Assembly (NCBI GenBank): GCA_018304325.1
Contig: JAGVWM010000010.1
Coordinates: 1-12,452, forward strand
From: Candidatus Pacearchaeota archaeon
GTDB lineage: Archaea; Nanobdellota; Nanobdellia; Pacearchaeales; GW2011-AR1
DNA: 12,452 bases
Reading direction: 5' to 3'
Position 1 is the stretch's first letter; the number at the start of each line of letters is the position of its first letter. A program made the position numbers and the translations under genes. Positions 165 to 12,452 of this stretch are shown here, in pieces. A model generated the notes under the pieces. It was not told where the DNA came from. It did no database searches and worked only from the letters and a program-made list of their open reading frames with translations.

Positions 165-200
165 AGTGAAGCTCCCAATCACAGCAAGCTGTGGGATTTC
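165..200 (+). repeat. 36-bp repeat, copy A (agtgaagctcccaatcacagcaagctgtgggatttc), perfect inverted partner at 9221-9256
   Basis: Its exact reverse complement occurs at 9221-9256 (36/36). There is an internal imperfect hairpin: tccca 173-177 pairs with tggga 192-196, and cagc 182-185 pairs with gctg 188-191. It is followed by atttcttttt (T-rich). The flank on the T-rich side is also partly similar between copies (tttttaattaa vs ctttcaattaa). Confidence 0.9.
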
Positions 201-532
201 TTTTTAATTAAAAAAAGAACATAGTAAATTGGTAGCAGACTACAATACCAGATGCTCAGAAACTAGATTTAAATATGAACGAGAAAGGCTGGCTTTAAAT
301 AATGCAGAAAAGCAGGAAATAGCATCAATTCGAAATCCACCTTCATTAGAAAGTATGATTTTATAATTCTAAGTTAATTTCTTAATTTTTAGGGAGTACC
401 TCAAAAATCCCGTTCAAGCAAAAAAATAGAAAGCTTTAAAAACCAACTTTTGATAATATTTAGTATTAGAAAGTTGTAAATACCCAAGCTCGTCAACTTT
501 TTTACAGTAAATACTTAACAATACTAGCTATA

Positions 533-736
533 ATGCACGCTCTTCAACCAAAACACTCAAAAATTAGCAAAAAAGATGAGGAATCTTTATTAAAAGGACT
601 AAATGTTTCTAAAACACAATTACCAAAAATAAGAAAAGAAGATGCTGCTTTACCAGAAAATTGTGAAACTGGAGATATAATTAAAATAGAGAGGAAAGAA
701 GAAGATTCTTTCATTTACTATAGGGTTGTTATTTAA
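533..736 (+). CDS. rpoH: DNA-directed RNA polymerase subunit H (Rpo5/Rpb5 C-terminal domain homologue)
   Basis: This 67-aa ORF reads HALQPKH...QLPKIRKEDAALPEN.ETGDIIKIERK...FIYYRVV. That fits the conserved RpoH pattern (H.LVPKH ... LPKI ... DP ... GD[IV][IV]KI.R.S ... YR.V). Its stop lies 1 nt before the rpoB ATG, the canonical position upstream of rpoB. Confidence 0.85.
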   Translation: MHALQPKHSKISKKDEESLLKGLNVSKTQLPKIRKEDAALPENCETGDIIKIERKEEDSFIYYRVVI

Positions 737-737
737 A

Positions 738-3700
738 ATGGGCTTTGGAAAGGGAGTTAAATTAAAATTGAAAGGTGATGAACATCTTATTTTGCAAAAA
801 TATTTATCTGAAAATTCTTTAGTTGGATCTAATTTAACTTCATTCAATAATTTTATCGATAGAAGAATGCAAGAAATTGTAGATGAAATATCTGAGCATA
901 TAGAAAATGATGATGGTTTGGAAATAAATCTTGGAAAAATAAGAGTTGGAAAACCAAATATTATTGAATCAGATGGATCAACAAGTCTGATTACTCCTGG
1001 AGAAGCAAGAATCAGAAATTTAACTTATTCTACACCAGTATTTCTGGAAATTTCTATAAAACAAGAAGGGCAGATTGAAAATCAAGAAGTTGAAATTGGT
1101 AGAATACCTATCATGGTTAAGAGCAAGGTTTGTAATTTAAATGGGATGTCAAAAGATGAGTTGGAACTTAATTATATGGATCCTATTGATCCTGGAGGAT
1201 ATTTTATAGTTAATGGAAATGAAAGAATTATGGTTATGTCTGAAGATCTTGCTGCAAATCAGCCATTTATCGAGCCTATTAAAGATAAATTAACACTAAG
1301 ATTATTTTCAAGCAGAGGAGCTTACAGAATACCTATAACAATAACTGAATCTAGCGAAGGAATAATTGAGGTTAGTTTTTCCAGATTTAAAAATATCCCT
1401 GCAGTTATATTAATGAAATCATTAGGAATGATAAAAGAAGCAGACATAGCCAAGCATATTGGTAAAGAAAATGATACTGTTATTGTTAACCTTTATGAAT
1501 TTGCAAAAGTATCAACAACTGAAGATGCTATGCTTGAAATAGCTGAGAAAACGAGTGTTCAGGGGACGAAGAAAGAAATTCTTGACAGAATAAAACAAAG
1601 ATTAGACTCTTATTTTCTTCCACATATTGGTTTAAAAAAAGAAAAAAGAATTGACAAAGCAATAACACTTTGTAAATTAATAAAACAATTTCTAATATTT
1701 AAAGAAAATGAAAAATTAAGAGTTGATAAAGATCATTATGCTAATAAAAGAGTTAGATTATCTGGAGATTTGCTTTCTGACTTATTTAGAGTTAATCTTA
1801 ATATTTTAGTTAGAGATATAAAATACTCTCTTCAAAAGACAATAAAGAGAAAGAAATTCTTTAGTATTAAGACAATTGCTAAATCAACTTTATTTTCTCA
1901 CAGAATAAAATCTGCCATTGCAACAGGTAGCTGGATTGGTGAAAAGAAAGGAGTTACTCAGAATATGGACAAGACAAATTACATGTCAATTATATCTCAA
2001 TTACAGAAAGTTTCTAGTTCATTATCTGGAGAACAGACAAATTTCGCAGCAAGAACATTACATCCGACACATTATGGAAGATTCTGCCCTGTTGAAACTC
2101 CTGAAGGAACTGAAATAGGATTAAGGAAAAATCTTGCACTTATGTCTAAAATTTCAACTAGACTTGATTTAGATGAAGAACAATTAGTTAAGGAATTGGA
2201 AAAACTTGGTATGAAAAAAGAAGGAGATGGTGTAGATGTATTTTTTAATGGAATATATATTGGAGGTGCTGAAAATTATAAAGATTTTACTGAACAAGTT
2301 AGAAATAAAAGAAGGGAACTAAAACTTCCTGATGAACTAAGTATAAGGTATGATAAACAAATCAACAGCATACTAATACTTGGAGATATTGGTAGAGTTT
2401 TGAGACCTTTAATTATTGTAAAAAATGGTAAACCTCTGCTTGATGATTCACATATAGAATCTTTGAAAAATGGAAGTTTAACTTGGAAAGGTTTGTTAGA
2501 ACATGGGATAGTTGAATATATCGACGCTTCTGAAGAAGAAAACTGCTTAGTATCAATAACTAAAGATAAACTTACAAATGAAAATACTCATCTTGAAATA
2601 GATAAAATTGCTTTCCTTGGACCAATTACATCTTTAGTTTCTTTTGGAAATCATGACCAGTCTTCAAGACTTATAAGGGGAAGTAAAACACAAAAACAGG
2701 GACTTGGATTATATGCTGCAAATTATTTATGCAGGGTTGACACAGATGTTTCTATTTTACACTATCCACAACAACCAATTGTCAGAAGTTTTGTTTATGA
2801 TGCATTAAATGCATATCCTGTTGGAGAAAATATTGTCGTTGCAGTAATGACTTATGATGGTTATAATATGGAAGATGCTTTAGTTATAAACAAAGCAAGT
2901 ATAGACAGAGGATTTGGAAGAAGTACATACTTTAGACCTTATGTTTCAGTAGAACTTAATTATGCAGGAGGATTAGCTGATGAAATTATTATTCCTGGAA
3001 AAGATGTTTCTGGTTATAGGACTGAAGAGTCATATAAGTATTTGGAAGATGATGGAGTTGTTTATCCTGAAGCTAAATTAGAATCTGGAGATGTTGTTAT
3101 CGGTAAAACTTCTCCTCCTAAATTCCTTTCAGAAGCTAAAGATATTAGTATAAAAGCAAAAAAAGAAGCAAGTTCAGTTATAAGACAGGAAGAAAGTGGA
3201 GTAATTGACGGCGTATTCATAACACTAGATGAAGATGGGAATAAAATTGTCCAAGTTAGAACAAGAGATCCTAGAATACCTGAATTAGGAGATAAATTCT
3301 CAACAGCTCACGGACAGAAAGGAGTTATAGGTGCTATTGTTCCTGAAGATGATATTCCTTTTACATCAAGAGGAATGAGACCTGATTTGATATTTAATCC
3401 TCATGGTATCCCATCAAGAATGACTGTAGGATATTTATTAGAGTTACTTACTGGAAAAATTGGTTGCTTAAAGGGAGAAATTATGGATGGAACATCATTT
3501 GGAACAAGAGATATTGATAATCTTGAAGAGCAGCTAAGAGGTTTAGGATTTAGATATGATGGAAAAGAAACAATGTATCATGGAGTTACTGGAAAAAGAA
3601 TGACTGCTAAAATTTATATTGGTAATATGTATTATTTGAAATTAAAATATATGGTAAGTAATAAAATGCATGCACGTGCATCTGGAAAAGTTGCTTTACT

Positions 3701-4022
3701 TACTAGACAGCCAATTGAAGGAAGGGCAAGAGGAGGAGCATTAAGACTTGGAGAAATGGAGCAGCAAGCATTAGTTGCACATGGAGCTTCTTTATTATTA
3801 AAAGAAAGATATGATTCTGATAAAGTAATAATTCACATTTGTGAAAACTGTGGAGCTTTAGGAATTAAAGATACGTTAAGAAATAAAACATATTGTCCCT
3901 CTTGTGGAAGTAATGAAATAGAAGAAGTAGAAGTGTCTTATGCATTCAAATTACTTGCAGAAGAATTATTAGGATTACATATAAATACTGAGTTCGAACT
4001 AAAGAACAAATATGAAGAATAA
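738..4022 (+). CDS. rpoB: DNA-directed RNA polymerase subunit B, unsplit (1094 aa)
   Basis: The ORF-track start at 726 is a TTG overlapping rpoH. The first ATG at 738 gives MGFGKG...SLVGSNLTSFNNFI, which aligns with archaeal RpoB N-termini. Hallmark motifs are GDKFSTAHGQKGV, PDLIFNPHGIPSRMTVG and TRQPIEGRARGGALRLGEME, plus a C-terminal Zn ribbon CENCG...CPSCG. It is one continuous ORF with no B'/B'' split. Confidence 0.95.
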   Translation: MGFGKGVKLKLKGDEHLILQKYLSENSLVGSNLTSFNNFIDRRMQEIVDEISEHIENDDGLEINLGKIRVGKPNIIESDGSTSLITPGEARIRNLTYSTPVFLEISIKQEGQIENQEVEIGRIPIMVKSKVCNLNGMSKDELELNYMDPIDPGGYFIVNGNERIMVMSEDLAANQPFIEPIKDKLTLRLFSSRGAYRIPITITESSEGIIEVSFSRFKNIPAVILMKSLGMIKEADIAKHIGKENDTVIVNLYEFAKVSTTEDAMLEIAEKTSVQGTKKEILDRIKQRLDSYFLPHIGLKKEKRIDKAITLCKLIKQFLIFKENEKLRVDKDHYANKRVRLSGDLLSDLFRVNLNILVRDIKYSLQKTIKRKKFFSIKTIAKSTLFSHRIKSAIATGSWIGEKKGVTQNMDKTNYMSIISQLQKVSSSLSGEQTNFAARTLHPTHYGRFCPVETPEGTEIGLRKNLALMSKISTRLDLDEEQLVKELEKLGMKKEGDGVDVFFNGIYIGGAENYKDFTEQVRNKRRELKLPDELSIRYDKQINSILILGDIGRVLRPLIIVKNGKPLLDDSHIESLKNGSLTWKGLLEHGIVEYIDASEEENCLVSITKDKLTNENTHLEIDKIAFLGPITSLVSFGNHDQSSRLIRGSKTQKQGLGLYAANYLCRVDTDVSILHYPQQPIVRSFVYDALNAYPVGENIVVAVMTYDGYNMEDALVINKASIDRGFGRSTYFRPYVSVELNYAGGLADEIIIPGKDVSGYRTEESYKYLEDDGVVYPEAKLESGDVVIGKTSPPKFLSEAKDISIKAKKEASSVIRQEESGVIDGVFITLDEDGNKIVQVRTRDPRIPELGDKFSTAHGQKGVIGAIVPEDDIPFTSRGMRPDLIFNPHGIPSRMTVGYLLELLTGKIGCLKGEIMDGTSFGTRDIDNLEEQLRGLGFRYDGKETMYHGVTGKRMTAKIYIGNMYYLKLKYMVSNKMHARASGKVALLTRQPIEGRARGGALRLGEMEQQALVAHGASLLLKERYDSDKVIIHICENCGALGIKDTLRNKTYCPSCGSNEIEEVEVSYAFKLLAEELLGLHINTEFELKNKYEE

Positions 4023-4162
4023 ACCTTTTAACGAAAAGGTTTCCAAAATACTTTTAAAAAAGTAATAAAAGAAAGATAAACCTTTTAACGAAAAGGTTTC
4101 CAAAATACTTTTAAAAAAGTAACAAAAGAAAGATAAACCTTTTAACGAAAAGGTTTCCAAAA
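4021..4162. repeat. Tandem repeat, 57-bp period, about 2.5 units (starts 4021, 4078, 4135)
   Basis: Units 1 and 2 differ at one position (T4066 vs C4123). Unit 3 matches through 4162 and then diverges. Every unit carries palindrome P1, aaacctttt-aacg-aaaaggttt (9-bp arms, 4-nt spacer, e.g. 4021-4042). Full units also carry P2, tactttt-aa-aaaagta (7-bp arms, e.g. 4049-4064). The rpoB stop codon (4020-4022) overlaps the first unit. Confidence 0.95.
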
Positions 4163-4206
4163 CAAACGAACTGAAAAATAAAACTAAATAGAAAAAATAA
4201 AGTAAA

Positions 4207-4422
4207 ATGAGAGACATATATTATGGAATGAAAAATAAAAATCTTTACTTAATGTTAGTTATAGACTTTATATTAATTATTATAGGGATATTAATATCAT
4301 TGCTTTATGATAAGAATATTGGACTTTTAATAGTAATATTTTTTGCAGGTAATGGATTTGTATTATTAGAAATTTGGCAAATGGACATTAAATTTAATTC
4401 AAAAAATAGGATAAAAAAATAA
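4207..4422 (+). CDS. Small hypothetical membrane protein (71 aa, two predicted TM helices)
   Basis: Two hydrophobic stretches are present: LYLMLVIDFILIIIGILISLLY and IGLLIVIFFAGNGFVLLEIW. Its stop lies 1 nt before the next ORF's ATG, so the genes are tightly packed. I recognise no family. Confidence 0.5.
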   Translation: MRDIYYGMKNKNLYLMLVIDFILIIIGILISLLYDKNIGLLIVIFFAGNGFVLLEIWQMDIKFNSKNRIKK

Positions 4423-4423
4423 A

Positions 4424-4615
4424 ATGAATGAAGGAATTGAAGGAATAAAAACAAGAGAAGAAGGAGATAGAGAAGGAGTATATGTTTCAGGAGAATGTCC
4501 TGAAATTGATGCTAGCTGTATTTGTATAAGAAATCATGAAATATACACACAAGTTTGCCTGGGAAATTATGAAACTTGCCCAATATATGCTTTAAATTCA
4601 GGAGTAATGAGATAA
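4424..4615 (+). CDS. Small hypothetical cysteine-rich protein (63 aa; C-x6-C-x-C-x10-C-x6-C)
   Basis: Cysteines are at residues 25, 32, 34, 45 and 52, after an acidic/glycine-rich N-terminus. It starts 1 nt after the previous stop and ends 2 nt before the rpoA ATG at 4618. It has no CxxC pairs, so it does not look like RpoP, RpoN, Spt4 or TFS. Family not recognised. Confidence 0.45.
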   Translation: MNEGIEGIKTREEGDREGVYVSGECPEIDASCICIRNHEIYTQVCLGNYETCPIYALNSGVMR

Positions 4616-4617
4616 AA

Positions 4618-7600
4618 ATGCATGCAGTAAAAAAACAAGTTAGAGCATTAAGATTCAAATTACTTAGTCCTGACCAGATTAAAAAAATTTCATGTGCTAA
4701 GATAATTACTCCTGAACTTTATGATATGGATGGTTATCCTGTAGATGGAGGATTAATGGATTTAAGATTAGGAGCTATTGATCCTGGAGTAAGATGTAGA
4801 ACTTGTGGAGGTCGTTTGAAGGAGTGTTTAGGACATCCTGGAAGTATTGAACTTGCACGTCCTGTTGTTCATGTAAAATATATTCCAATTGTTTATACAT
4901 TTTTAAGAAGTTTCTGCCAACATTGTGGAAAAATACTTATTGATGAAAAAAATATTGAAAAACTTGGACCAGCTGCAAGATTAAAAAAAGCAAAAGATGG
5001 AAAAAAATGTCCCCATTGTCAATCTCCTCAAGAAAAAATAAAACTTGAAAAGCCAACAAATTTTATAATAGGTAAAAAAAGATTATTTCCTCCAGAAGTA
5101 AGAGAGCTTCTTGAAAGAATACCTGATGAAGATCTTAGACTGGTTGGTGTTAATCCTAAAGAATTCCGTCCTGAATGGGGAGTATTAACTGTGCTATTAG
5201 TTCCTTCAGTTACTGTAAGACCAAGTATTACTCTTGATAGTGGTGAGAGAAGTGAAGATGATTTAACTCATAAATTAGGAGATATTATAAGAGCTAATCA
5301 AAGACTTTGGGAAAACCTTAATGCAGGAGCTCCAGAAGTTATTATTGATGATTTATGGGATTTATTACAATATCATGTTACAACATTTTTTGATAATACA
5401 ATATCAAGAATACCTCCAGCAAGACATAGATCTGGACAGCCACTAAAGACTATTACTGAAAGAATAAAAGGAAAAGAAGGAAGAATAAGAAATAATCTTG
5501 CAGGTAAGAGAGTTAATTTTTCATCTAGAACAGTAATTTCTCCAGATCCTTCATTAAGAATAAATGAAGTGGGAATACCTTTTGAAATTGCTAAAGTTCT
5601 TACAGTTAATGAAGAAGTTACATCATTAAATATTGAAAAGTTAAGAAAATTAATCTCTAGTGAAGGTTATCCTGGAGCTAACTATATAATAAGACCTGAT
5701 GGAAGAAGAAAAAAAATTAGTTTAGAATTAAAACAGGAAATAATAGAAGAAATTAAACCGGGATATTTTGTTGAAAGACATTTACAAGATGGAGATGTTG
5801 TTTTATTTAACAGACACCCAAGTCTTCATAGAGGAAGTTTAATGGCGCACTATGCTAAAATACTACCTTATAGAACATTTAGATTACATCCTGCAGTAGT
5901 ATTTCCATATAACGCAGACTTTGATGGAGATGAAATGAATGTTCATGTTCCACAAACTGAAGAAGCAAGAGCAGAAGCAAGAATTTTACTCGATGTAAAC
6001 AATAACTTAATGAGTCCAAAAAATAATACAAATTTAATTGGAACTATTTCAGATGCTATTACAGGAAATTATTTACTTGGAACAACTGAAATTTCTAAAG
6101 GAGATGCTCATCAGCTTCTTTTCACTTCAGGAGTATTAGTTCAATTCAGTAAGGATAAAATAAATGGAAAAGAGGTTTTCACAAGTATATTCCCTCCTAT
6201 AAACAAAGCTATAATAAATGAGGTTACAAAGAGTAACTTAACTGATGAATATACTTTTGGAGTTGAAAATGATAAAACAACCAAGATAATTGACAGAGAA
6301 TTAGGAAGAGAAAAAGCTATGGAAACAATTGGTAAAGCTTTTACTCTTGGAACTAAATATCTTTCAAAAGTTGGTTATACAATTTCATTAAATGACTTAA
6401 ATGTGTTAAGTAGTGTTAAAAAAACAACTGATGAAGTTATCAAAGAGGGAGAAGATAAAACAAATAAAATAATTGAAGATTATAATGGTGGCACAATGGA
6501 AGTTATCCCAGGAAAAACGCCTGAAGAAACAAGAGAAATTAAAATACTTCAGTCTTTAAATGAAGTAAGAACAAAAATAGGTAAAATTGTAAAAAATGAA
6601 TTCCCTAAGGACAATCCTGTTAATAGTATGATAATTTCTGGAGCAGGAGGTAATATACTTAATATTACACAGATAGCTTGTTCAGTTGGACAGCAGTCTT
6701 TATGGAGTGAAAGAATTAAGTTTGGTTATACTAACAGAACATTATCTTCATTTAAGGAAAATGACTTATCTCCAAGAGCAAGAGGATTTATTTACAGCTC
6801 ATATATGAAAGGTCTTGATCCAGATGAATTTTTCTTTAATGCTATAACTGGAAGAGATGGTCTAATGGATACTGCACTTAGAACACCTAAGTCAGGGTAT
6901 TTATATAGAAGATTAGCTAATGCACTTCAAGATTTAAGAGTTGAGTATGATGGAACTGTAAGAGATGCAATTGGACAGATAATACAATTCAAATATGGAG
7001 ATGATGGTATTGCAGTTCAAGGAGCACACCTTAAACAACAAATATCTCCTGGAGAAGCTATAGGAATAATCACTGCTCAAAGCTTTGGAGAACCTTCTAC
7101 ACAGATGGCTCTTAATGTATTCCACTTTGCAGGAGTTCAGGAAATGCAGATTACACTTGGACTTCCTAGATTAATAGAAATATTTGATGCAAGGAAAACA
7201 CCTTCTACTCCTGCTATGGAGATTTATCTCGATAAGGACTTCAATGATGAGAAAAATGCTAAGTTAACTGCTGAAAAAATAAAAGAAGTTAAACTTAAAG
7301 AAATACTTACAGAAGCAAATATTAATTTCTCTGATAAAAAAATAGAATTAGTAATAAATAATAAAGCACTAAAAACAACACATATGTCTTTAGAAACAAT
7401 TGCAAACAAGTTAAAGACAAAAACTCTTAAAATAAATGTAAAAAGTGATTCTATGTCAATAAATGCTGGAGATTTAGATTTCAAAGAGATGTATAAACTG
7501 AAAGAAAGGATGAAAGAAACAATAATCTCTGGAGTAAAGGGGATACAACAAGTACTTATTGTAAAGAGAGGAACTAACTTTATTATACTAACTGCAGGAT

Positions 7601-8079
7601 CTAACCTTAAAGAAATAATGGAATTAAAGGGAATTAATAGAGATAAAACAACTACAAATGATTTATATGAAGTTCAGGATGTTTTAGGTATAGAAGCTGC
7701 AAGACGGGCAATTATAAATGAAATTGATAGAGTTCTAAACTCTCAAGGATTAGATATTGATAAAAGACATCTTAAATTAGTTGCAGATGCTATGTCTGTT
7801 GATGGAGAAATAAGAGGAATGACAAGAATGGGTATAATTTCCAAGAAATCAAGTATTTTAGCAAGAGCAAGTTTTGAAACTCCTATAAAACATTTTGTAG
7901 ATGCAACAATAAAAGGTAGAAGAGATGAATTACTTTCTGTTATTGAAAATATAATCTTAAATCAACCTGTTCCAGTTGGTACTGGTCTTCCTGGATTAAT
8001 GGTTAAAATTACAGGGCCACTAGTACAAGAGAAAGATATGAAAAAAGAAAAGAAAGAATCTAAAAATAAATCTAAGTAA
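4618..8079 (+). CDS. rpoA: DNA-directed RNA polymerase largest subunit, A' and A'' portions fused in one ORF (1153 aa)
   Basis: The ORF-track start at 4576 is a TTG extension overlapping the upstream ORF. The ATG at 4618 gives MHAVKKQVRALRFKLLSPDQIKK, a typical A' N-terminus. N-terminal Zn motifs are CRTCGG...C.GH and CQHCG...CPHC. The catalytic NADFDGDEMN lies at 5911-5940. The bridge helix is GRDGLMDTALRTPKSGYLYRRL and the trigger loop is AQSFGEPSTQMALNVFHFAGV. A''-type C-terminal motifs are GIEAARRAIINEI and SILARASFE. No stop occurs between the A'-type and A''-type parts. The C-terminal tail is Lys-rich (KKEKKESKNKSK). Confidence 0.95.
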   Translation: MHAVKKQVRALRFKLLSPDQIKKISCAKIITPELYDMDGYPVDGGLMDLRLGAIDPGVRCRTCGGRLKECLGHPGSIELARPVVHVKYIPIVYTFLRSFCQHCGKILIDEKNIEKLGPAARLKKAKDGKKCPHCQSPQEKIKLEKPTNFIIGKKRLFPPEVRELLERIPDEDLRLVGVNPKEFRPEWGVLTVLLVPSVTVRPSITLDSGERSEDDLTHKLGDIIRANQRLWENLNAGAPEVIIDDLWDLLQYHVTTFFDNTISRIPPARHRSGQPLKTITERIKGKEGRIRNNLAGKRVNFSSRTVISPDPSLRINEVGIPFEIAKVLTVNEEVTSLNIEKLRKLISSEGYPGANYIIRPDGRRKKISLELKQEIIEEIKPGYFVERHLQDGDVVLFNRHPSLHRGSLMAHYAKILPYRTFRLHPAVVFPYNADFDGDEMNVHVPQTEEARAEARILLDVNNNLMSPKNNTNLIGTISDAITGNYLLGTTEISKGDAHQLLFTSGVLVQFSKDKINGKEVFTSIFPPINKAIINEVTKSNLTDEYTFGVENDKTTKIIDRELGREKAMETIGKAFTLGTKYLSKVGYTISLNDLNVLSSVKKTTDEVIKEGEDKTNKIIEDYNGGTMEVIPGKTPEETREIKILQSLNEVRTKIGKIVKNEFPKDNPVNSMIISGAGGNILNITQIACSVGQQSLWSERIKFGYTNRTLSSFKENDLSPRARGFIYSSYMKGLDPDEFFFNAITGRDGLMDTALRTPKSGYLYRRLANALQDLRVEYDGTVRDAIGQIIQFKYGDDGIAVQGAHLKQQISPGEAIGIITAQSFGEPSTQMALNVFHFAGVQEMQITLGLPRLIEIFDARKTPSTPAMEIYLDKDFNDEKNAKLTAEKIKEVKLKEILTEANINFSDKKIELVINNKALKTTHMSLETIANKLKTKTLKINVKSDSMSINAGDLDFKEMYKLKERMKETIISGVKGIQQVLIVKRGTNFIILTAGSNLKEIMELKGINRDKTTTNDLYEVQDVLGIEAARRAIINEIDRVLNSQGLDIDKRHLKLVADAMSVDGEIRGMTRMGIISKKSSILARASFETPIKHFVDATIKGRRDELLSVIENIILNQPVPVGTGLPGLMVKITGPLVQEKDMKKEKKESKNKSK

Positions 8080-8089
8080 CTGCGATATG

Positions 8090-8099
8090 TTTATAAATA
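8090..8099 (+). promoter_or_regulatory. TATA-box-like element (tttataaata) upstream of the 54-aa ORF and nusA
   Basis: It closely matches the archaeal TATA consensus TTTAWATA. It is intergenic, about 60 nt upstream of the ATG at 8158. Such strings are common by chance in AT-rich DNA. Confidence 0.25.
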
Positions 8100-8157
8100 T
8101 ACTACTTTATTAAGAAATATATTTATTAGCAGGATGATAAAATAATAACTATAAAAC

Positions 8158-8322
8158 ATGGTTGAAAAAATAATTTTAAATATAGGTGAATTTAAAAGAT
8201 ATTATCTCCCAAGATTGCATGAAGAAGAAATTGAGGCAATAATGGAGCATCCAGAATTATATGGAACAGGAATTGTTAGAGAGATTTTTGAAAAGATTTC
8301 AAAACACACTACTAACATCTAA
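8158..8322 (+). CDS. Hypothetical 54-aa ORF occupying the slot where rpl30e normally sits
   Basis: ATG to TAA, MVEKIILNIGEFKRYYLPRLHEEEIEAIMEHPELYGTGIVREIFEKISKHTTNI. It falls below the ORF-track length cut-off. It is same-strand and ends 19 nt before nusA. It shows no resemblance to L30e and I recognise no family. Confidence 0.3.
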   Translation: MVEKIILNIGEFKRYYLPRLHEEEIEAIMEHPELYGTGIVREIFEKISKHTTNI

Positions 8323-8341
8323 TAATTAATTTGAAGATAAG

Positions 8342-8758
8342 ATGATAAGAACAATTGATATGCAACATATGAGGTATTTAAACCTCTTTTCTAGAATAAC
8401 TAAGATAAGTACTCAACATTGTTTTATTTACAATGGTCAGCTTATTTTTGTTGTTCCAGAAGCTCTTGTTTCAAGGGCAATTGGGGATAATGGTAGAAAT
8501 ATCAGAAAAATATCAGAGGTAATAAATAAAAAAGTTAAAGTGGTAATGATTCCTAATGGAATAAAAGATGCAGAAAAGTTTATTTCAACAATAATTTATC
8601 CTGCTCAGCTAAAAAGTGTTGAAGTTAAAGATAATGTTTTAATTATAAATGCTGGTCAGCAAAACAAAGCTTTGTTAATAGGTAGAAACAAAGCAAGATT
8701 GGAGGAAATGAAGGAAATTGTTAAGAGTTACTTCGGAAAAGAGGTAAAAGTTGTTTAA
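8342..8758 (+). CDS. nusA: Archaeal NusA-like transcription elongation/termination factor (two KH domains, 138 aa)
   Basis: Size and architecture are typical of archaeal NusA. There are two KH-like modules with GxxG-type loops: AIGDNGRNIRKISEVINKKVKVV and ALLIGRNKARLEEMKEIVKSYFGKEV. It has the canonical position downstream of rpoA. Confidence 0.8.
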   Translation: MIRTIDMQHMRYLNLFSRITKISTQHCFIYNGQLIFVVPEALVSRAIGDNGRNIRKISEVINKKVKVVMIPNGIKDAEKFISTIIYPAQLKSVEVKDNVLIINAGQQNKALLIGRNKARLEEMKEIVKSYFGKEVKVV

Positions 8759-8872: not shown

Positions 8873-9201
8873 ATGAAAAGTTCAAGAGATACAGGTGATA
8901 AAAAATATGAAGGAATAGAAAGAAGAGATTTTCTTAAGTATGTTGGTAGAGGTATTGCAGGATTATTATTTTAGGTGAAACTGTGAGATCAGCTAGTAAA
9001 TATCCAACCTGTGATGAAAATAATACAAATTATACCAAAGAGCTTGCTAAGAGAGAAGAAAACTTCTATAGTGCAATAACTAATGTAGCTTCTTCTAATA
9101 ACTATGGTGTAGTTGTTGAAAAAGGGGATCCTGAAATTGCAGGATATAAAGATATAACTTCAGAGGTTGTTAAAGCTTTGAAAGAAATTGAGAAAAATTA
9201 A
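8873..9201 (+). pseudogene. Small secreted (Tat-signal) protein gene interrupted by a 1-nt frame change; alternatively two separate short ORFs (8873-8974 and 8983-9201)
   Basis: The ATG at 8873 has GGAG 6 nt upstream. It encodes MKSSRDTGDKKYEGIERRDFLKYVGRGIAGLLF and then TAG (8972-8974). RRDFLK matches the twin-arginine consensus [ST]RRxFLK, and the hydrophobic region is cut short by the stop. The -1 frame is open from 8950 and continues as ...LGETVRSASKYPTCDENN... to the TAA at 9199-9201. Joining the two gives a plausible protein of about 108 aa. In counter-evidence, AGGTGA lies 4 nt upstream of the GTG at 8983. Confidence 0.45.
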
Positions 9202-9220
9202 AAATAATCTTAATTGAAAG

Positions 9221-9256
9221 GAAATCCCACAGCTTGCTGTGATTGGGAGCTTCACT
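9221..9256 (-). repeat. 36-bp repeat, copy B (inverted orientation relative to 165-200)
   Basis: gaaatcccacagcttgctgtgattgggagcttcact is the exact reverse complement of 165-200. It lies between convergent gene ends (+ ORF stop at 9201, - ORF stop at 9285). T5 follows on the + strand (9260-9264), and atttcctttc follows on the - strand. Confidence 0.9.
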
Positions 9257-9284
9257 AAATTTTTAGATTATTTAATGATATTTT

Positions 9285-10682
9285 TTAATGTTGTTGAGTT
9301 CCAACTAAACTATCTCTTTCTATAACTCTAGCTTCTAAGAAATAGAACAATTGCGATTGATTGTTCTCTATACTTCTGGAGGTTATTACTCCGTTAATAA
9401 AAGGAATTTTATTCAAACCCGGAATTCCTCTGTCAACAGACTTATACCTAGTGAATAAGGTTGCTCCTAAAAAATAAGTTTCTCCGTTTCTTATTGTTAC
9501 ATCTGTATTTATATCAGATTCCCTGAATACAATTCTTTGAACAGTTCCTACATAACCTGCTTGCTCTCCCGATTTTCCCTGTTCAACTTTAACAGTAATA
9601 AGACCCTCTTCATTAGCATAAGGAGTCATTTTGATCTCTGTACCAATATCTCTATACTTTAAGGTTTCATAAGTAGAGGTTGGCAACACTACAAATTCAG
9701 GATAAGGGACAGAATTTATATTTCTCATAAAAACTGAGGTTCCATTTGAAACCAAGACATCAACATCTGAAACAATGTTTACTTTGCCATGACTGTCAAG
9801 AAATTTAATCGCCCCTGAAAGATTAAATTCATTTGCAACTTCTGTTACATGCCGTATAATATTTCCAACTCCTCCTGCTGGATTGGGAATATATTCATAA
9901 GTTCTTATAACATTTGGATCATTTGCATTGAAAAATGGGTTAATATCTATACCTGTTGTTAGAGGCTTTGTTTCATCAGCATTGCTTGGTAAATTCAAAG
10001 AAAATGTATTCGCTCCATTTCTTAATACCTTAATAGCTAATTCTCTATCATAAGTATTGTCTGCAAAATATTCAACAATCTTCATTCTTAATCTAACTTG
10101 TAAAGCAGGCAAGTCAAATTCGTTTAGCAATGTAGATAAATAGGAAAAATCTCCGAATTCAGTTTCAGGACCATTGAAAATTAGTATGTTCTGATTTGGA
10201 AATTCAGTAATTTTTATGTTAGGTATATACTCTTCCACAATCTTTTTCAAATCAGGAGCAGCAAGTCTTGAGTGATATTGCATAATAACTCTCCCAGAAT
10301 TATCTTTTATGTATGTAGCATTGAGTGATGGTATTTTAAATCTCTGTGATTGTGGAACATCTACTAAAGTTTCTAAAGTTTTTGGAGGTGTGTTTTCATC
10401 ATCCCTTAAATAGCCCCTACTATTTATTATTTTATAGTTATGCTCTTTATCATATTCTGAATAATCTATTTTTATTATATCTGAAACAGGTTCTTCATTT
10501 TTAGATTCATTTGTTCTAAATACCTCATGGACTAGTGGAGAATTATTTATCACTGTTGCAGTTTTATGTAATAAGTTGGTAGGATTTACTTTACTTAGTG
10601 TATTACATCCAGGACCGATTGTGCTGAGAATTCCTATAAGACCTGTTGCAAATGCTCTTGTGGCTGTTTTTCTTGCGTTCAT
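9285..10682 (-). CDS. Secretin-family protein (GspD/PilQ/RcpA/pIV-like) with a lipoprotein-like signal peptide, 465 aa
   Basis: The N-terminus MNARKTATRAFATGLIGILSTIGPGC is a signal peptide with Cys26 in a lipobox-like context. Residues about 155-205, IKITEFPNQNILIFNGPETEFGDFSYLSTLLNEFDLPALQVRLRMKIVE, fit the secretin N-domain pattern (..NsLiv.g.....l..li..lD.p..QV.ie..ivE). Residues about 340-456 read LKYRDIGTEIKMTPYANEEGLITVKVEQ...SDINTDVTIRNGETYFLGATLF...RGIPGLNKIPFINGVITSRS...QSQLFYFLEARVIE. That fits the secretin C-terminal core (Y.dvG..L.vtP.i...g.i.l.v.....t.v.v.dGet.vlGGL......vP.L..iP.lG.lF.......eL.ifitP.ii). A strong SD-like agaGGTGgcGAGG lies 6-17 nt upstream of the ATG. Confidence 0.75.
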   Translation of the reverse strand: MNARKTATRAFATGLIGILSTIGPGCNTLSKVNPTNLLHKTATVINNSPLVHEVFRTNESKNEEPVSDIIKIDYSEYDKEHNYKIINSRGYLRDDENTPPKTLETLVDVPQSQRFKIPSLNATYIKDNSGRVIMQYHSRLAAPDLKKIVEEYIPNIKITEFPNQNILIFNGPETEFGDFSYLSTLLNEFDLPALQVRLRMKIVEYFADNTYDRELAIKVLRNGANTFSLNLPSNADETKPLTTGIDINPFFNANDPNVIRTYEYIPNPAGGVGNIIRHVTEVANEFNLSGAIKFLDSHGKVNIVSDVDVLVSNGTSVFMRNINSVPYPEFVVLPTSTYETLKYRDIGTEIKMTPYANEEGLITVKVEQGKSGEQAGYVGTVQRIVFRESDINTDVTIRNGETYFLGATLFTRYKSVDRGIPGLNKIPFINGVITSRSIENNQSQLFYFLEARVIERDSLVGTQQH

Positions 10683-10783
10683 TCATAACCTCGCCACCTC
10701 TATAGTATTACTCAATAGTTATGATATTTAAACATATACTAAAATTAATATATATTTTATAGTATATATTATAATAATTTAAT

Positions 10784-11287
10784 CTATAATGTGTTGTACT
10801 CTTTGTGATTCTTTATCCATTCAGAAACTTTTTCATTGTCTGATGTGAAAGTTGTTTTATCCCAATACTCTCCGAATTTTTTGTTTATATGATATGCTGC
10901 TTCTCTGCATAAAATAAAATAACTTTTACTTGGTAGTTTATTTTTTTTGTCAATTTTAATTGAATAGTCTACAACTATAAAACAATCACCTATTATTTTT
11001 TTATTTCTGAAATCATATGCTTTTGTTGTTTCAAAATTGTACAAATTTTCTCTTTTTTTAATTTCTTTTAATTCTAATTCATTAACTTTAAACATTACTC
11101 CATTTAGCTCTGAATTTTTTGATTTCTCAAGATTTAATATGTCAGAATTTTCATTTTTCTTTACATAAATATCAAAAATTCTTTTATAACCTTTTATTAT
11201 TACCGGCTTAAAGTGTTTATTGTTTATTGTTTCCTTCAGGGAGTTATGGCTAATAAGACTGCCATAACCTATCATATTATACTCCAT
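10784..11287 (-). CDS. Gamma-glutamylcyclotransferase-fold protein (ChaC/AIG2-like), 167 aa
   Basis: The N-terminal IGYGSLISH carries the YGSL motif of the GGCT/ChaC fold. This is followed by IIKGYKRIF (ChaC-like GY.R.F) and ELKEIKKRENLY (RE..Y context of the catalytic Glu). It is on the same strand as, and 101 bp upstream of, the secretin-like gene. The call rests on motifs only. Confidence 0.45.
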   Translation of the reverse strand: MEYNMIGYGSLISHNSLKETINNKHFKPVIIKGYKRIFDIYVKKNENSDILNLEKSKNSELNGVMFKVNELELKEIKKRENLYNFETTKAYDFRNKKIIGDCFIVVDYSIKIDKKNKLPSKSYFILCREAAYHINKKFGEYWDKTTFTSDNEKVSEWIKNHKEYNTL

Positions 11288-11467: not shown

Positions 11468-11626
11468 ATGAGAAGAGTTAAGATAATAAATAAATCAACA
11501 CTTACTCTGAAAGGGATAAAATGTTTTCTTGAAAGAGAAGTTAAACCCTTTGGGACAAGTGCTAGAATAGATTTCCCAAAGGAATTCATCGGAAAAAAAG
11601 TGTATGTTATAGTGGCCGATGGATGA
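11468..11626 (+). CDS. Small transposon-associated protein (52 aa; DUF2080-like / AbrB-SpoVT-like pattern)
   Basis: The sequence is MRRVKIINKSTLTLKGIKCFLEREVKPFGTSARIDFPKEFIGKKVYVIVADG. The segment G.SARI.FPKEFIGKKVYVIV resembles the short archaeal proteins encoded directly upstream of transposases. It overlaps the transposase start by 8 nt (ATGGATGA). It falls below the ORF-track length cut-off. Confidence 0.5.
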   Translation: MRRVKIINKSTLTLKGIKCFLEREVKPFGTSARIDFPKEFIGKKVYVIVADG

Positions 11627-12452
11627 AAATAAAATAAGTTTTAGTTTAGGAATATTAAAACATTTTATTAATGATTCTTTAGGATTAGATTATGAATCTA
11701 ATAAGGTTACTGGATTTGAATTATTAAACTCGGTTGTTTGTGCTTCAGCCCATAATACTTATGTTGAAACGGTTGGAGATAAAGCGGATACGCTTTATCG
11801 TCGGATAAAGGAATCTCCAATAAGCATGACTACCCACGCTTATCTAAATTATATAAAAAGATTATCTGCAAAGTTAGAATTAAATAAAAAAGAAATTGTT
11901 CTTGCATTTGATTATACAGATGAAGATTTTTATGGTGATGTTCAAGGTTTTGACATTCATGGCTGGACAGGAAAAGATGCAGTTACAGGACATTTTAAAT
12001 TTCTAACATGCAGTATAATTTCCGATGATATTCCTGAAAAAATACCTTTAATCTCCATTCCAATAATGCTCGGGCATTATAAAAGCAGTGTAGTGTTACA
12101 CTGCTTATCTTTGATTAAAAATTATATTGGAAAAATTAATTTGATTTTATTTGATAGGGGATTTTATGATAAAGATTTGATGTATGAATTAACAAAATTA
12201 AGTTATCCTTATTTGATATTTGTTCCAAAACATAAGGATAAAAAAGAAATTATTTATCCAATGAAAATAGATGAACAAGTCGCCATTTACAACAATTTTG
12301 TCGTCAATAAAAATCAGAACAGATATTCTGGAGAGAACATCTTAATTTTTCTCAAACAAATTTATGATCCAAGAAGTGAGAAAAATTACGATTGGGTTTT
12401 TGCAACAAATGTCGAAGAAGTTTTGCTTGAAAATCTAGTTATAACTTACAAA
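11619..12452 (+). CDS. DDE transposase, ISH3/IS4-like, N-terminal 278 aa (ORF runs off the window end)
   Basis: I translated this by hand with no stop through 12452; it is absent from the ORF track because it is incomplete. LAFDYTDEDFYGDVQGFDIHGWTGKD is a first catalytic Asp in the D.T....YYG context typical of ISH3-type enzymes. NLILFDRGFYDKD is a second Asp in a DRGF context. The window ends at ...LVITYK, where the Y..RW.IE signature would be expected. Confidence 0.75.
   Translation, partial: MDENKISFSLGILKHFINDSLGLDYESNKVTGFELLNSVVCASAHNTYVETVGDKADTLYRRIKESPISMTTHAYLNYIKRLSAKLELNKKEIVLAFDYTDEDFYGDVQGFDIHGWTGKDAVTGHFKFLTCSIISDDIPEKIPLISIPIMLGHYKSSVVLHCLSLIKNYIGKINLILFDRGFYDKDLMYELTKLSYPYLIFVPKHKDKKEIIYPMKIDEQVAIYNNFVVNKNQNRYSGENILIFLKQIYDPRSEKNYDWVFATNVEEVLLENLVITYK

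What the first reader, a model, noticed from the sequence alone, without database searches (positions are those of the whole stretch)
9285..10682. Secretin-family lipoprotein-like gene on an unmistakably archaeal contig
Seen in sequence: the 465-aa minus-strand protein has a signal peptide ending in Cys26. It has a segment matching the secretin N-domain (NILIFNGPE...LLNEFDLPALQVRLRMKIVE). It also has a C-terminal core with the characteristic secretin layout (YRDIGTEIKMTP...ITVKVEQ...TDVTIRNGETYFLGATLF...GIPGLNKIPFINGVITS...QLFYFLEARVIE). Established knowledge: secretins (Pfam Secretin and Secretin_N) form outer-membrane channels. They serve type II/III secretion, type IV and Tad pili, competence, and filamentous-phage export in diderm bacteria. 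Some are lipoproteins that target themselves without a pilotin. Archaea generally lack an outer membrane, and I know of no characterised archaeal secretin. This gene sits 1.2 kb from archaeal rpoH-rpoB-rpoA-nusA in DNA that is AT-rich like the rest of the window. No pilin, ATPase or platform gene is visible here, so it looks like an orphan. Its GC-rich SD (GGTGgcGAGG) contrasts with the weak or absent SDs of the core genes. It lies between a dispersed repeat and an IS, which fits horizontal acquisition. Inference: it may be a pore-former co-opted by an archaeon (for example for cell-cell or host contact, or in a double-membraned lineage), a prophage or foreign remnant, or an assembly chimera.
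Basis: partly seen in the sequence, partly recalled or inferred. Interest (0 to 1): 0.8.

Follow-up and report, generated by a model that had tools for sequence, protein, structure and literature searches.

The report
Archaeal secretin with Skp-like partner
A bacterial-type outer-membrane pore protein (a secretin) and a small chaperone-like partner are a real, inherited two-gene unit in a group of tiny symbiotic archaea that are not known to have an outer membrane, so the pore must do something new there.

Summary
ORF 9285-10682(-) encodes a 465-aa secretin: Pfam PF00263 scores 73.8 bits (cut-off 27.5), and the 40 best PDB fold matches are all secretins.

It is not a chimera. The identical gene lies next to nusA-rpoA-rpoB-rpoH in nine other assemblies. 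Orthologues (36-53% identity) hold the same slot between nusA and rps12 in five further Pacearchaeota lineages.

The acquisition from bacteria is therefore ancient. It has nothing to do with the nearby IS or the repeat.

New findings:
- Cys26 is invariant in 29 homologues, as in a lipoprotein secretin.
- The protein has one N domain and no N0 or S domain. No pilus or secretion genes lie within about 10 kb.
- A convergent 120-147-aa exported protein with Skp/OmpH-like similarity is a conserved partner. In this window it is broken by a 94-bp deletion.
- A sister strain is 98-99% identical in the flanks but only about 40% identical in the mature secretin and partner. The pair behaves as a swapped, hypervariable cassette.

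Best reading: a lipid-tethered, self-contained surface pore module. It possibly inserts into a Gram-negative host's outer membrane. An archaeal outer membrane is not excluded.

The parts
9285..10682 (-). Secretin gene (465 aa), Pacearchaeota-specific secretin family
   Evidence: ORF and translation. PF00263 at 73.8 bits against GA 27.5. All 40 top PDB fold matches are secretins. 33 close homologue clusters at 36-51% identity. The family is sharply bounded in an exhaustive HMM search: 19 representatives at >=210 bits, then a drop to 123 bits.
10605..10682 (-). Signal peptide ending in a lipobox-type Cys26 (MNARKTATRAFATGLIGILSTIGPG|C)
   Evidence: Cys26 is invariant in 29 homologues. 22 of 29 fit a PROSITE-like lipobox pattern. 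The window's own copy has an atypical Pro at -2. It is the only Cys in 13 of 29 proteins. Lipidation itself was not tested.
10068..10349 (-). Single secretin N (ring-building) domain, aa about 112-205
   Evidence: Profile alignment to the last N domain of PilQ and GspD. The AF2 alpha/beta domain has pLDDT about 90. Pfam Secretin_N is not significant. No STN/N0 hit.
9792..9977 (-). Variable, low-confidence loop region (aa about 236-297) with a lineage-specific insertion
   Evidence: The alignment shows an insertion shared in full only with P0021 and P0027; P0007 has an insertion at the same site. pLDDT is below 50 for 212-255 and 284-297.
9318..9800 (-). Secretin beta-barrel core (aa 295-455), including the conserved RGIPxLNKIPxI motif
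   Evidence: Pfam match to model positions 2-169 of 169. Long beta-hairpins with pLDDT about 80-90. Invariant residues include G347, G360, G372, E373, Q382, F386, R418, G419 and P421.
10683..10735 (-). Upstream region with SD-like GAGGTGGCGAGG (10689-10700) and a TATA-like TTTAAATA (10725-10732)
   Evidence: Read directly from the sequence. These are consensus-level matches only, in AT-rich DNA.
8873..9201 (+). Convergent partner gene: a small exported Skp/OmpH-like protein, disrupted here by a 94-bp frameshifting deletion at 8965|8966
   Evidence: An intact 140-aa gene is present in nine other assemblies. It carries an RRDFLK twin-arginine-type signal. Pfam OmpH hits seven of the nine distinct partners scanned, best 31.8 bits against GA 32.4. 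The PDB profile search finds OmpH 9yju at E 1.2e-4. Precomputed OmpH hits are on record for the L026 and L028 partners.
8966..10625 (.). Allelic cassette: the mature part of the partner plus the mature secretin
   Evidence: Against L012/L013/L037 the flanks are 95-100% identical in nucleotides, but this stretch is about 55% identical in nucleotides and about 40% in protein. The breakpoints are sharp and lie just after the partner's signal peptide (mature residues 1-15 are still conserved) and inside the secretin's.
9210..9256 (.). 47-nt element between the two convergent genes; an inverted copy lies at 165-211 upstream of rpoH
   Evidence: 96% complementary. It forms a weak hairpin, z -1.2 and -2.2. 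It is found only in this strain type. No Rfam match.
10784..11287 (-). ChaC/GGCT-like 167-aa gene upstream of the secretin; not a conserved partner
   Evidence: Weak ChaC hits. Present in L012 but absent from L011 and L026.
11468..12452 (+). IS-like element: DUF2080 ORF plus a 278+ aa ORF. It occupies the place where rps12-rps7 sit in related genomes
   Evidence: DUF2080 at E 2.5e-15. The ORF was read. SNPs between assemblies cluster only beyond 11684 or 11837, as expected for a multi-copy element. S12 and S7 sit here in L012.
533..8758 (+). Archaeal core context: rpoH, rpoB, rpoA (unsplit) and nusA
   Evidence: Pfam domains. The order is the same in all related loci.

Best explanation
SHOWN.
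- The ORF is a real, intact gene of a Pacearchaeota (DPANN) archaeon.
- It encodes a compact secretin. The parts in order are a signal peptide with an invariant lipobox-type Cys, a tether of about 85 aa with conserved short motifs, one ring-building N domain, and a complete secretin beta-barrel core.
- There is no N0/STN domain and no S domain.
- It forms a two-gene module with a convergent small exported protein that resembles the C-terminal part of Skp/OmpH.
- The module sits at a fixed site between nusA and rps12 in this window's strain and five further lineages. It was therefore gained from bacteria once and long ago, and then inherited vertically.
- Between otherwise near-identical strains, the mature parts of both proteins differ as a unit, like an exchanged cassette.

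INFERRED MECHANISM.
1. Both proteins are exported.
2. The secretin is lipid-anchored through Cys26 to the outer face of the archaeal membrane.
3. The Skp-like protein keeps protomers assembly-competent.
4. The protomers form a 12-15-mer gated pore.

Several facts argue that the pore works as a self-contained surface module rather than as part of a T2SS or type IV pilus machine. No filament, ATPase or platform genes accompany it. It lacks the N0 domain that couples secretins to inner-membrane machinery. The whole mature protein is hypervariable.

The most plausible use is at the contact with another cell. The membrane-inserting end would enter the outer membrane of the Gram-negative host that these episymbionts attach to.
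For: Secretin identity.

Real and archaeal:
- The identical protein lies on 14 contigs, with the same joins in nine other assemblies.
- Composition matches the neighbouring genes.

Vertical inheritance at a fixed site: S7-S12 | secretin | partner-NusA-RpoA-RpoB-RpoH in L011/L015/L036, L012/L013/L037, L014/L034, L017/L018, L019/L038 and L026.

Narrow clade:
- Only 6 GTDB species carry it, all of Pacearchaeota type.
- The family is sharply bounded among 18,167 secretin representatives.

Invariant Cys and lipobox.

Partner:
- It is adjacent in 6 of 6 informative loci found by searching with the partner itself.
- It is also adjacent in a different genomic context, L028.
- OmpH similarity.

No secretion or pilus genes within about +/-10 kb in any locus.

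Cassette:
- The window and L012 are 99% identical in RpoA, RpoB and NusA. Secretin is 43% and the partner 62% identical.
- The control pair L017/L019 has RpoA 96%, secretin 88% and partner 93%.
- Breakpoints are sharp.
- L031 has NusA 90% but a secretin fragment only 39% identical.

Lifestyle: He et al. 2021 (PMC7906910) report that Ca. Pacearchaeota are unusually strongly host-attached. They also show ultrasmall cells without an outer membrane attached to hosts with two lipid layers.
Against: - No direct evidence for lipidation, oligomerisation, localisation or expression.
- The window's own lipobox is atypical, with Pro at -2.
- The partner's OmpH similarity is below Pfam's gathering score (best 31.8 against 32.4) and covers only the last third of the model. 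Its AF2 model failed, with pLDDT 40.
- The partner is broken in this window. It was not found next to the secretin in L016 or L027.
- Type IV filament genes elsewhere in these genomes could not be surveyed, so 'orphan' is only shown locally.
- The host and envelope of these Pacearchaeota are unknown. The host-membrane step is inference.
- The imaged ultrasmall cells in PMC7906910 were not assigned to Pacearchaeota.
Confidence: 0.55

Rival explanations
1. The secretin is the outer portal of a conventional trans-envelope machine (type IV filament, DNA uptake or secretion) in an archaeon that has its own outer membrane or an equivalent outer layer. This Pacearchaeota subgroup would then be diderm-like, and the Skp-like protein would be part of a bacterial-type outer-membrane biogenesis kit.
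For: - All known secretins work in an outer membrane. The membrane-associated RGIPxLNKIP motif and the barrel are conserved.
- A Skp/OmpH-like periplasmic-chaperone homologue is co-inherited.
- A second, unrelated archaeal contig (L020) also carries a lipobox secretin among ribosomal and RNA polymerase genes.
Against: - No filament, ATPase, platform, Bam, Lol or Lpt genes lie in any of the loci examined.
- There is no N0 domain for coupling to an inner-membrane platform.
- The entire mature protein, not just surface loops, is swapped between near-identical strains.
- The literature states that archaea lack an outer membrane and do not need secretins (PMC6711533).
- Ultrasmall groundwater cells imaged so far lacked an outer membrane (PMC7906910).
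Confidence: 0.22
2. The gene is a recent foreign insertion: mobile-element cargo or a remnant of a filamentous-virus pIV-type export gene. It would be unrelated to host biology.
For: - An IS-like element lies 0.8 kb away.
- A 47-nt repeat lies at the 3' end of the gene.
- PHROG pIV family hit at 81 bits.
Against: - The position is the same in this strain and five further lineages that lack that IS and repeat.
- No relatives occur on viral contigs.
- Phage pIV proteins are only 21-26% identical.
- No phage-family hits for the neighbours.
- Composition equals that of the flanks.
Confidence: 0.04
3. The finding is an assembly or binning artefact: a bacterial gene joined to an archaeal contig.
For: - Metagenomic origin.
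- One related MAG is labelled 'Paceibacterota bacterium'.
- This window has an odd 94-bp deletion at 8965|8966.
Against: - Nine other assemblies (MEGAHIT, JGI and scaffold-based pipelines) give the same joins on both sides.
- Contigs of 139-867 kb carry orthologues; in those of 168, 389 and 867 kb the gene sits between archaeal core genes.
- The 'Paceibacterota' contig encodes Rpb5-type RpoH, EF-2 and eEF1A-type EF-1alpha, so the label is wrong, not the contig.
Confidence: 0.02
4. The gene is a decaying or non-pore relic: it is retained but no longer forms a channel.
For: - The partner gene is frameshifted in this window.
- The lipobox is atypical in this copy.
Against: - 29 or more intact full-length homologues share invariant core residues.
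- The Pfam match is full-length.
- The partner is intact in nine other assemblies that carry the identical secretin.
Confidence: 0.06

Closest known systems
Bacterial secretins in general (Pfam PF00263; GspD/PulD, PilQ, InvG/YscC, RcpA, phage pIV)
   Same: - A full C-terminal secretin core, preceded by a ring-building N domain.
- A signal peptide.
- Predicted long beta-hairpins.
- Every top fold match is a secretin.
   Different: - The host is an archaeon.
- No cognate machinery genes lie nearby.
- Only one N domain, and no N0/STN or S domain.
- Scores are far below the PilQ, GspD and SctC equivalog cut-offs (about 69 bits against 284-351).
- It forms its own sharply separated clade.
Self-piloting lipoprotein secretins ('liposecretins' such as HxcQ, BfpB and TcpC; recalled from my own knowledge, with BfpB seen as PDB 9u5s)
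   Same: An N-terminal lipobox-type Cys directly after the signal peptide. It is invariant across the family, and no separate pilotin lipoprotein lies nearby.
   Different: Those proteins are lipid-anchored in the bacterium's own outer membrane and are encoded inside T2SS or T4bP operons. Here the only membrane known is the archaeal cytoplasmic membrane, and the gene is orphan apart from a Skp-like partner.
Skp/OmpH periplasmic chaperones (Pfam PF03938), for the partner protein
   Same: - Small and exported.
- The C-terminal 'GYDVVVEKGDP...DIT.EVIK.L' region and an N-terminal strand/helix start align to OmpH and Skp.
   Different: - The mature protein is about 90-100 aa, against about 140 aa.
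- Only model positions about 82-141 match, so the long helical arms appear truncated.
- Scores are just under the gathering threshold.
- Some members use a twin-arginine signal.
- It is encoded convergent to a secretin rather than in a bamA-skp-lpxD type cluster (the latter from my own knowledge).
Deinococcus radiodurans DR_0774 secretin complex (PDB 8co1)
   Same: A secretin that is a major envelope constituent rather than an obvious operon member. It is a structural match at E 2.7e-16 and a sequence-profile match at E 9.5e-9.
   Different: Deinococcus has an outer membrane. DR_0774 is much larger (740 aa) and has many N domains.

Membership tests
Secretin superfamily (PF00263) | C-terminal secretin domain scoring above the curated threshold | tested here: met
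   73.8 bits against GA 27.5, E 1.6e-20, model positions 2-169 of 169. Fold search: all 40 top hits are secretins.
Secretin superfamily (PF00263) | At least one ring-building N domain (Secretin_N type) directly upstream of the core | tested here: inconclusive
   Pfam Secretin_N is not significant at E<=0.01. However, the family profile aligns through the last N domain of PilQ and GspD, and AF2 gives a confident alpha/beta domain at aa 115-205.
Secretin superfamily (PF00263) | Assembly into a 12-15-mer gated pore in an outer membrane of a diderm cell | not testable with these tools
   Only a monomer was modelled. The organism is archaeal and its envelope is unknown.
Secretin superfamily (PF00263) | Encoded with its cognate system (T2SS, T3SS, type IV or Tad pilus, or filamentous phage genes) | tested here: not met
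   No such genes lie within about 10 kb in the window or in loci L011, L012, L016, L024, L026, L027 and L028. The rest of each genome was not searchable.
PilQ (TIGR02515), GspD (TIGR02517) and SctC (TIGR02516) subfamilies | Score above the NCBIfam curated cut-off | tested here: not met
   69.7, 68.9 and 36.6 bits against cut-offs of 284, 351 and 238.
N0-containing secretins coupled to an inner-membrane platform | N-terminal N0/STN domain | tested here: not met
   No STN or other N-terminal Pfam hit. Residues 27-110 have only family-specific motifs and low to moderate pLDDT.
Lipoprotein ('self-piloting') secretins | Lipobox with an invariant Cys at the signal-peptide cleavage site | tested here: met
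   Cys is invariant in 29 of 29. 22 of 29 match a PROSITE-like lipobox pattern. The window's copy deviates at -2. Actual lipidation was not tested.
Skp/OmpH (PF03938), for the partner protein | Score above the Pfam gathering threshold over the whole domain | tested here: not met
   Best 31.8 bits against GA 32.4. Only model positions about 82-141 of 141 match. The PDB profile search gives OmpH E 1.2e-4 and Skp E 0.04. It is best called Skp-like, not a proven member.
Twin-arginine (Tat) substrates, for the partner protein | S/T-R-R-x-F-L-K motif followed by a hydrophobic region and an AxA cleavage site | tested here: inconclusive
   ERRDFLKY...AYA|DT was read in L001, L012 and P0036, and DRRDFMKY in L014. 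Pfam TAT_signal gives E 0.0044, below its cut-off. Other members (L011, L017, L019, L026, L028) have Sec-type N termini.

The most novel reading that the evidence does not exclude
One reading: an archaeal episymbiont uses a bacterial-derived, lipid-tethered secretin, delivered with its own mini-Skp chaperone, to punch a gated pore of about 7-8 nm into the outer membrane of its Gram-negative host. That would create an inter-domain conduit. Host or phage pressure would then drive wholesale swapping of the pore-and-chaperone cassette between strains.

The equally radical alternative is that this Pacearchaeota clade is a diderm archaeon with bacterial-type outer-membrane components.
Probability: 0.3. 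Interest if true: 0.95.

Novelty: new variant of a known kind. Interest (0 to 1): 0.8.

Why it matters
Secretins are treated as a hallmark of diderm bacteria. [quoted passage not shown]

Here a secretin is conserved, vertically inherited and lipobox-bearing. It has a Skp-like partner and sits in the most conserved gene neighbourhood of an archaeal lineage. That leaves two possibilities. Either some DPANN archaea have an unrecognised outer compartment, or a bacterial outer-membrane portal has been re-purposed, possibly to breach a host envelope.

How DPANN cells connect to hosts and take up material is an open question. This module is a concrete, testable candidate for that role. Its strain-level cassette swapping marks it as a likely interface with hosts or viruses.

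Tried and rejected
- AF2 of the partner from the two sequences that were allowed gave pLDDT 40. It was not used for a fold search.
- The viral-contig scan with the family profile found no relatives.
- A homologue search with the second archaeal secretin, P0048, found it to be a singleton with no close relatives. A wider archaeal distribution could not be shown.
- Donor clade: the nearest non-family hits are mostly unnamed metagenomic proteins. One cluster is from a Planctomycetes MAG. P0061 (sigma-70, Lnt) and P0049 (BatD, TPR) sit in bacterial-type contexts; P0050's context is uninformative. PilQ and GspD score equally. The donor remains unresolved.
- Eight literature searches for any archaeal secretin report, with follow-up reading of hits, found none. 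Several hits were just the word 'secreting'.
- Rfam and tRNA scans of the window found nothing. The 47-nt repeat folds only weakly.
- I considered DGR-type hypermutation as the cause of the hypervariability and rejected it. Divergence spans about 1.65 kb across two genes with sharp homology breakpoints, which fits allele exchange rather than targeted A-mutagenesis. The DGR properties are from my own knowledge.
- I considered the ChaC/GGCT-like gene as part of the module and rejected it, because it is absent from L011 and L026.
Full report
**Observation**

- Pfam Secretin (PF00263) matches aa 295-455 over the whole model (2-169 of 169). The score is 73.8 bits against a gathering score of 27.5, E 1.6e-20.
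- NCBIfam sees PilQ, GspD and SctC only at 37-70 bits, far below their cut-offs of 238-351. It is a secretin, but not a member of a named subfamily.
- A profile of 29 homologues hits solved PilQ and GspD structures at E 1e-17 to 1e-16. The alignment runs from the last N domain to the C terminus.
- An AF2 model (mean pLDDT 69.7; core and N domain about 80-92) has the long beta-hairpins of a secretin.
- Its 40 best PDB fold matches are all secretins: GspD, PilQ, InvG, pIV, BfpB and RcpA.
- Pfam Secretin_N itself was not significant. The N-domain claim therefore rests on the profile and the structure.

**Is it really archaeal?**

The window carries RpoH (Rpb5_C), RpoB (Rpb2 domains 1-7), an unsplit RpoA (Rpb1 domains 1-5) and a NusA-type KH protein. 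GC content is uniform.

The identical protein is on record on 14 contigs. In nine other assemblies from different pipelines the DNA joins on both sides are the same as in the window.

Homologues named by their sources are Candidatus Pacearchaeota MAGs. A scan of one genome per GTDB species found six carriers, all of Pacearchaeota type. One is mislabelled 'Paceibacterota bacterium', although its contig encodes Rpb5-type RpoH, EF-2 and eEF1A-type EF-1alpha. A chimera is effectively excluded.

**Age and inheritance**

In this window's strain and five further lineages (RpoA about 78-84% identical to each other) the gene sits at the same place:

S7-S12 (leftward) | secretin (rightward) | small partner-NusA-RpoA-RpoB-RpoH (leftward)

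This holds. That site is the junction of two of the most conserved archaeal gene clusters.

The IS-like element (DUF2080 plus a 278+ aa ORF, 11468-12452) and the 47-nt repeat are specific to this strain type. They do not explain how the gene arrived.

In an exhaustive HMM search of 1.84 billion representatives, the family is sharply bounded. Nineteen representatives score at least 210 bits. The next hit drops to 123 bits, followed by a continuum near 100 bits of ordinary secretins, 18,167 in all. The picture is one ancient transfer from bacteria followed by vertical descent. The donor could not be identified.

**Architecture**

- Cys26 is invariant in all 29 aligned homologues, and 22 fit a lipobox pattern. 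The window's copy has Pro at -2. In 13 proteins it is the only cysteine.
- Two members combine the lipobox with an RRDFL motif.
- After the Cys come about 85 residues with family-specific motifs (HEVFR.NE.KN, IDYS, N.RAYL). Then follow one N domain and the core, which includes an invariant RGIP...P motif.
- There is no N0/STN hit. The protein ends about 10 residues after the core, so it has no S domain.
- A low-confidence loop (aa about 236-297) carries an insertion shared in full only with P0021 and P0027; P0007 has an insertion at the same site.

**A conserved partner**

Convergent with the secretin lies a 120-147-aa protein with a signal peptide and a conserved mature N terminus (ADT[IV]Y[YF]G). 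The signal is of twin-arginine type, ERRDFLKY...AYA|DT, in several members and Sec-like in others.

- Seven of the nine distinct partners scanned hit Pfam OmpH. The best score is 31.8 bits against a gathering score of 32.4, and only model positions about 82-141 match.
- A profile search finds solved OmpH at E 1.2e-4 and Skp at E 0.04.
- Precomputed OmpH hits are on record for the partners in L026 and L028.
- Searching metagenomes with the partner itself returned 8 loci. In all 6 with enough flank, the secretin lies convergently downstream.
- The pair also occurs in a different genomic context, L028.
- It was not found next to the secretin in L016 or L027.

I call it Skp/OmpH-like with shortened arms. 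It is not a proven family member. Its AF2 model failed.

**This window's copy of the partner is broken**

Compared with the nine other assemblies, the window lacks 94 bp at 8965|8966, which frameshifts the gene. The right end of the deletion coincides exactly with the homology breakpoint described below. It may be an assembly artefact at a strain-variation bubble, or a recombination scar. Read mapping is needed to decide.

**Cassette behaviour**

Loci L012, L013 and L037 are 98-99% identical to the window in rpoH, rpoB and rpoA, and 93-96% identical in nusA and the ChaC-like gene. From 8966 to about 10625, identity falls to about 55% in nucleotides.

| Pair | RpoA | RpoB | NusA | Secretin | Partner |
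|---|---|---|---|---|---|
| window / L012 | 99% | 99% | 99% | 43% | 62% |
| L017 / L019 (control) | 96% | - | 87% | 88% | 93% |

Values are protein identities. The partner's N-terminal signal is nearly identical between the window and L012.

L031 has NusA 90% identical, but its secretin fragment is only 39% identical. The breakpoints lie just after the partner's signal peptide and inside the secretin's, so both mature proteins differ almost entirely as a unit. This is the pattern of an exchanged allelic cassette at a surface or interface locus.

**Mechanism**

Shown:
- a secretin-fold protein with a lipobox;
- a co-inherited Skp-like exported partner;
- no nearby filament or secretion genes in any locus;
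- no N0 domain;
- hypervariability.

Inferred:
- export, lipid tethering to the archaeal membrane, chaperoning by the partner, and oligomerisation into a gated pore that works as a self-contained module;
- because secretins need an outer membrane and archaea are not known to have one (PMC6711533), the simplest placement is in the outer membrane of a Gram-negative host.

The host idea has some support. Pacearchaeota are reported to be unusually strongly host-attached and metabolically minimal. Ultrasmall groundwater cells without an outer membrane were imaged on hosts with two lipid layers (PMC7906910). Two of the carrier MAGs come from that study's samples.

The main rival is that this clade has its own outer membrane or an equivalent layer. 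The Skp-like partner and a second archaeal lipobox secretin keep that rival alive. That second secretin, P0048, sits on contig L020 between L21e/Rpb4 and further core genes, but it is a singleton.

**Novelty**

Automated pipelines already label one homologue 'GspD/PulD (secretin)'. Eight full-text searches, with follow-up reading of the hits, found no description of an archaeal secretin. The fold is known. The host domain, the Skp-like pairing, the orphan status and the cassette swapping are new, so I rate it a new variant of a known kind.

Noticed in passing
window 8965|8966 (partner gene 8873-9201): A 94-bp deletion, unique to this window among ten assemblies, frameshifts the Skp-like partner. 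Its right end coincides exactly with the allele homology breakpoint. It could be an assembly artefact at a strain bubble or a real recombination scar.
   Followed up: partly
window 4576-8079: RNA polymerase subunit A is one unsplit ORF of 1153-1167 aa holding Rpb1 domains 1-5. Most archaea have split A' and A'' genes (from my own knowledge). It is also unsplit in all related loci.
   Followed up: no
window 4014-4184: Three tandem 57-nt units lie just after rpoB, each with a 9-bp-stem hairpin (AAACCTTTT/AAAAGGTTT; z -2.9). L002 has one unit fewer.
   Followed up: partly
window 4207-4615 and 8158-8322: Small ORFs of 71, 63 and 54 aa with no family hits are inserted between rpoB and rpoA and between rpoA and nusA. 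The first stretch has very low GC (0.23). All are absent from the 98.5%-identical sister strain L012.
   Followed up: partly
window 165-211 and 9210-9256: A 47-nt inverted repeat pair (96% complementary) brackets the whole rpoH-to-partner block. It is present only in this strain type. It has no Rfam match and folds only weakly.
   Followed up: partly
window 11468-12452: A DUF2080 ORF plus a 278+ aa ORF without Pfam or PHROG hits replaces rps12-rps7 at this position. SNPs between assemblies cluster only in this ORF, which suggests a multi-copy IS.
   Followed up: partly
L020 5898-6992 (JAIYQP010000050.1, GCA_053531595.1): A second, very different lipobox secretin (P0048, 364 aa; Secretin 104 bits, Secretin_N 24.7 bits) lies on another archaeal contig between L21e/Rpb4/DUF655/S13/S4/S11/RpoD genes. 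It has no close homologues anywhere.
   Followed up: partly
L011/L015 (DAOTCN010000001.1): The NCBI record is titled 'Candidatus Paceibacterota bacterium'. The contig nevertheless encodes archaeal RpoH (Rpb5_C), EF-2, eEF1A-type EF-1alpha, and S12/S7 in archaeal order. This is probably a taxonomic mislabel.
   Followed up: no
P0017 and P0033 (secretin homologues): Two family members combine an RRDFL twin-arginine-like motif with the lipobox Cys. That would mean Tat-type lipoprotein signals on a beta-barrel protein.
   Followed up: no
window 10784-11287: A 167-aa protein with weak ChaC/gamma-glutamylcyclotransferase similarity (E about 1e-3 to 1e-4, below cut-offs) is co-oriented upstream of the secretin in this strain and in L012 only.
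   Followed up: partly
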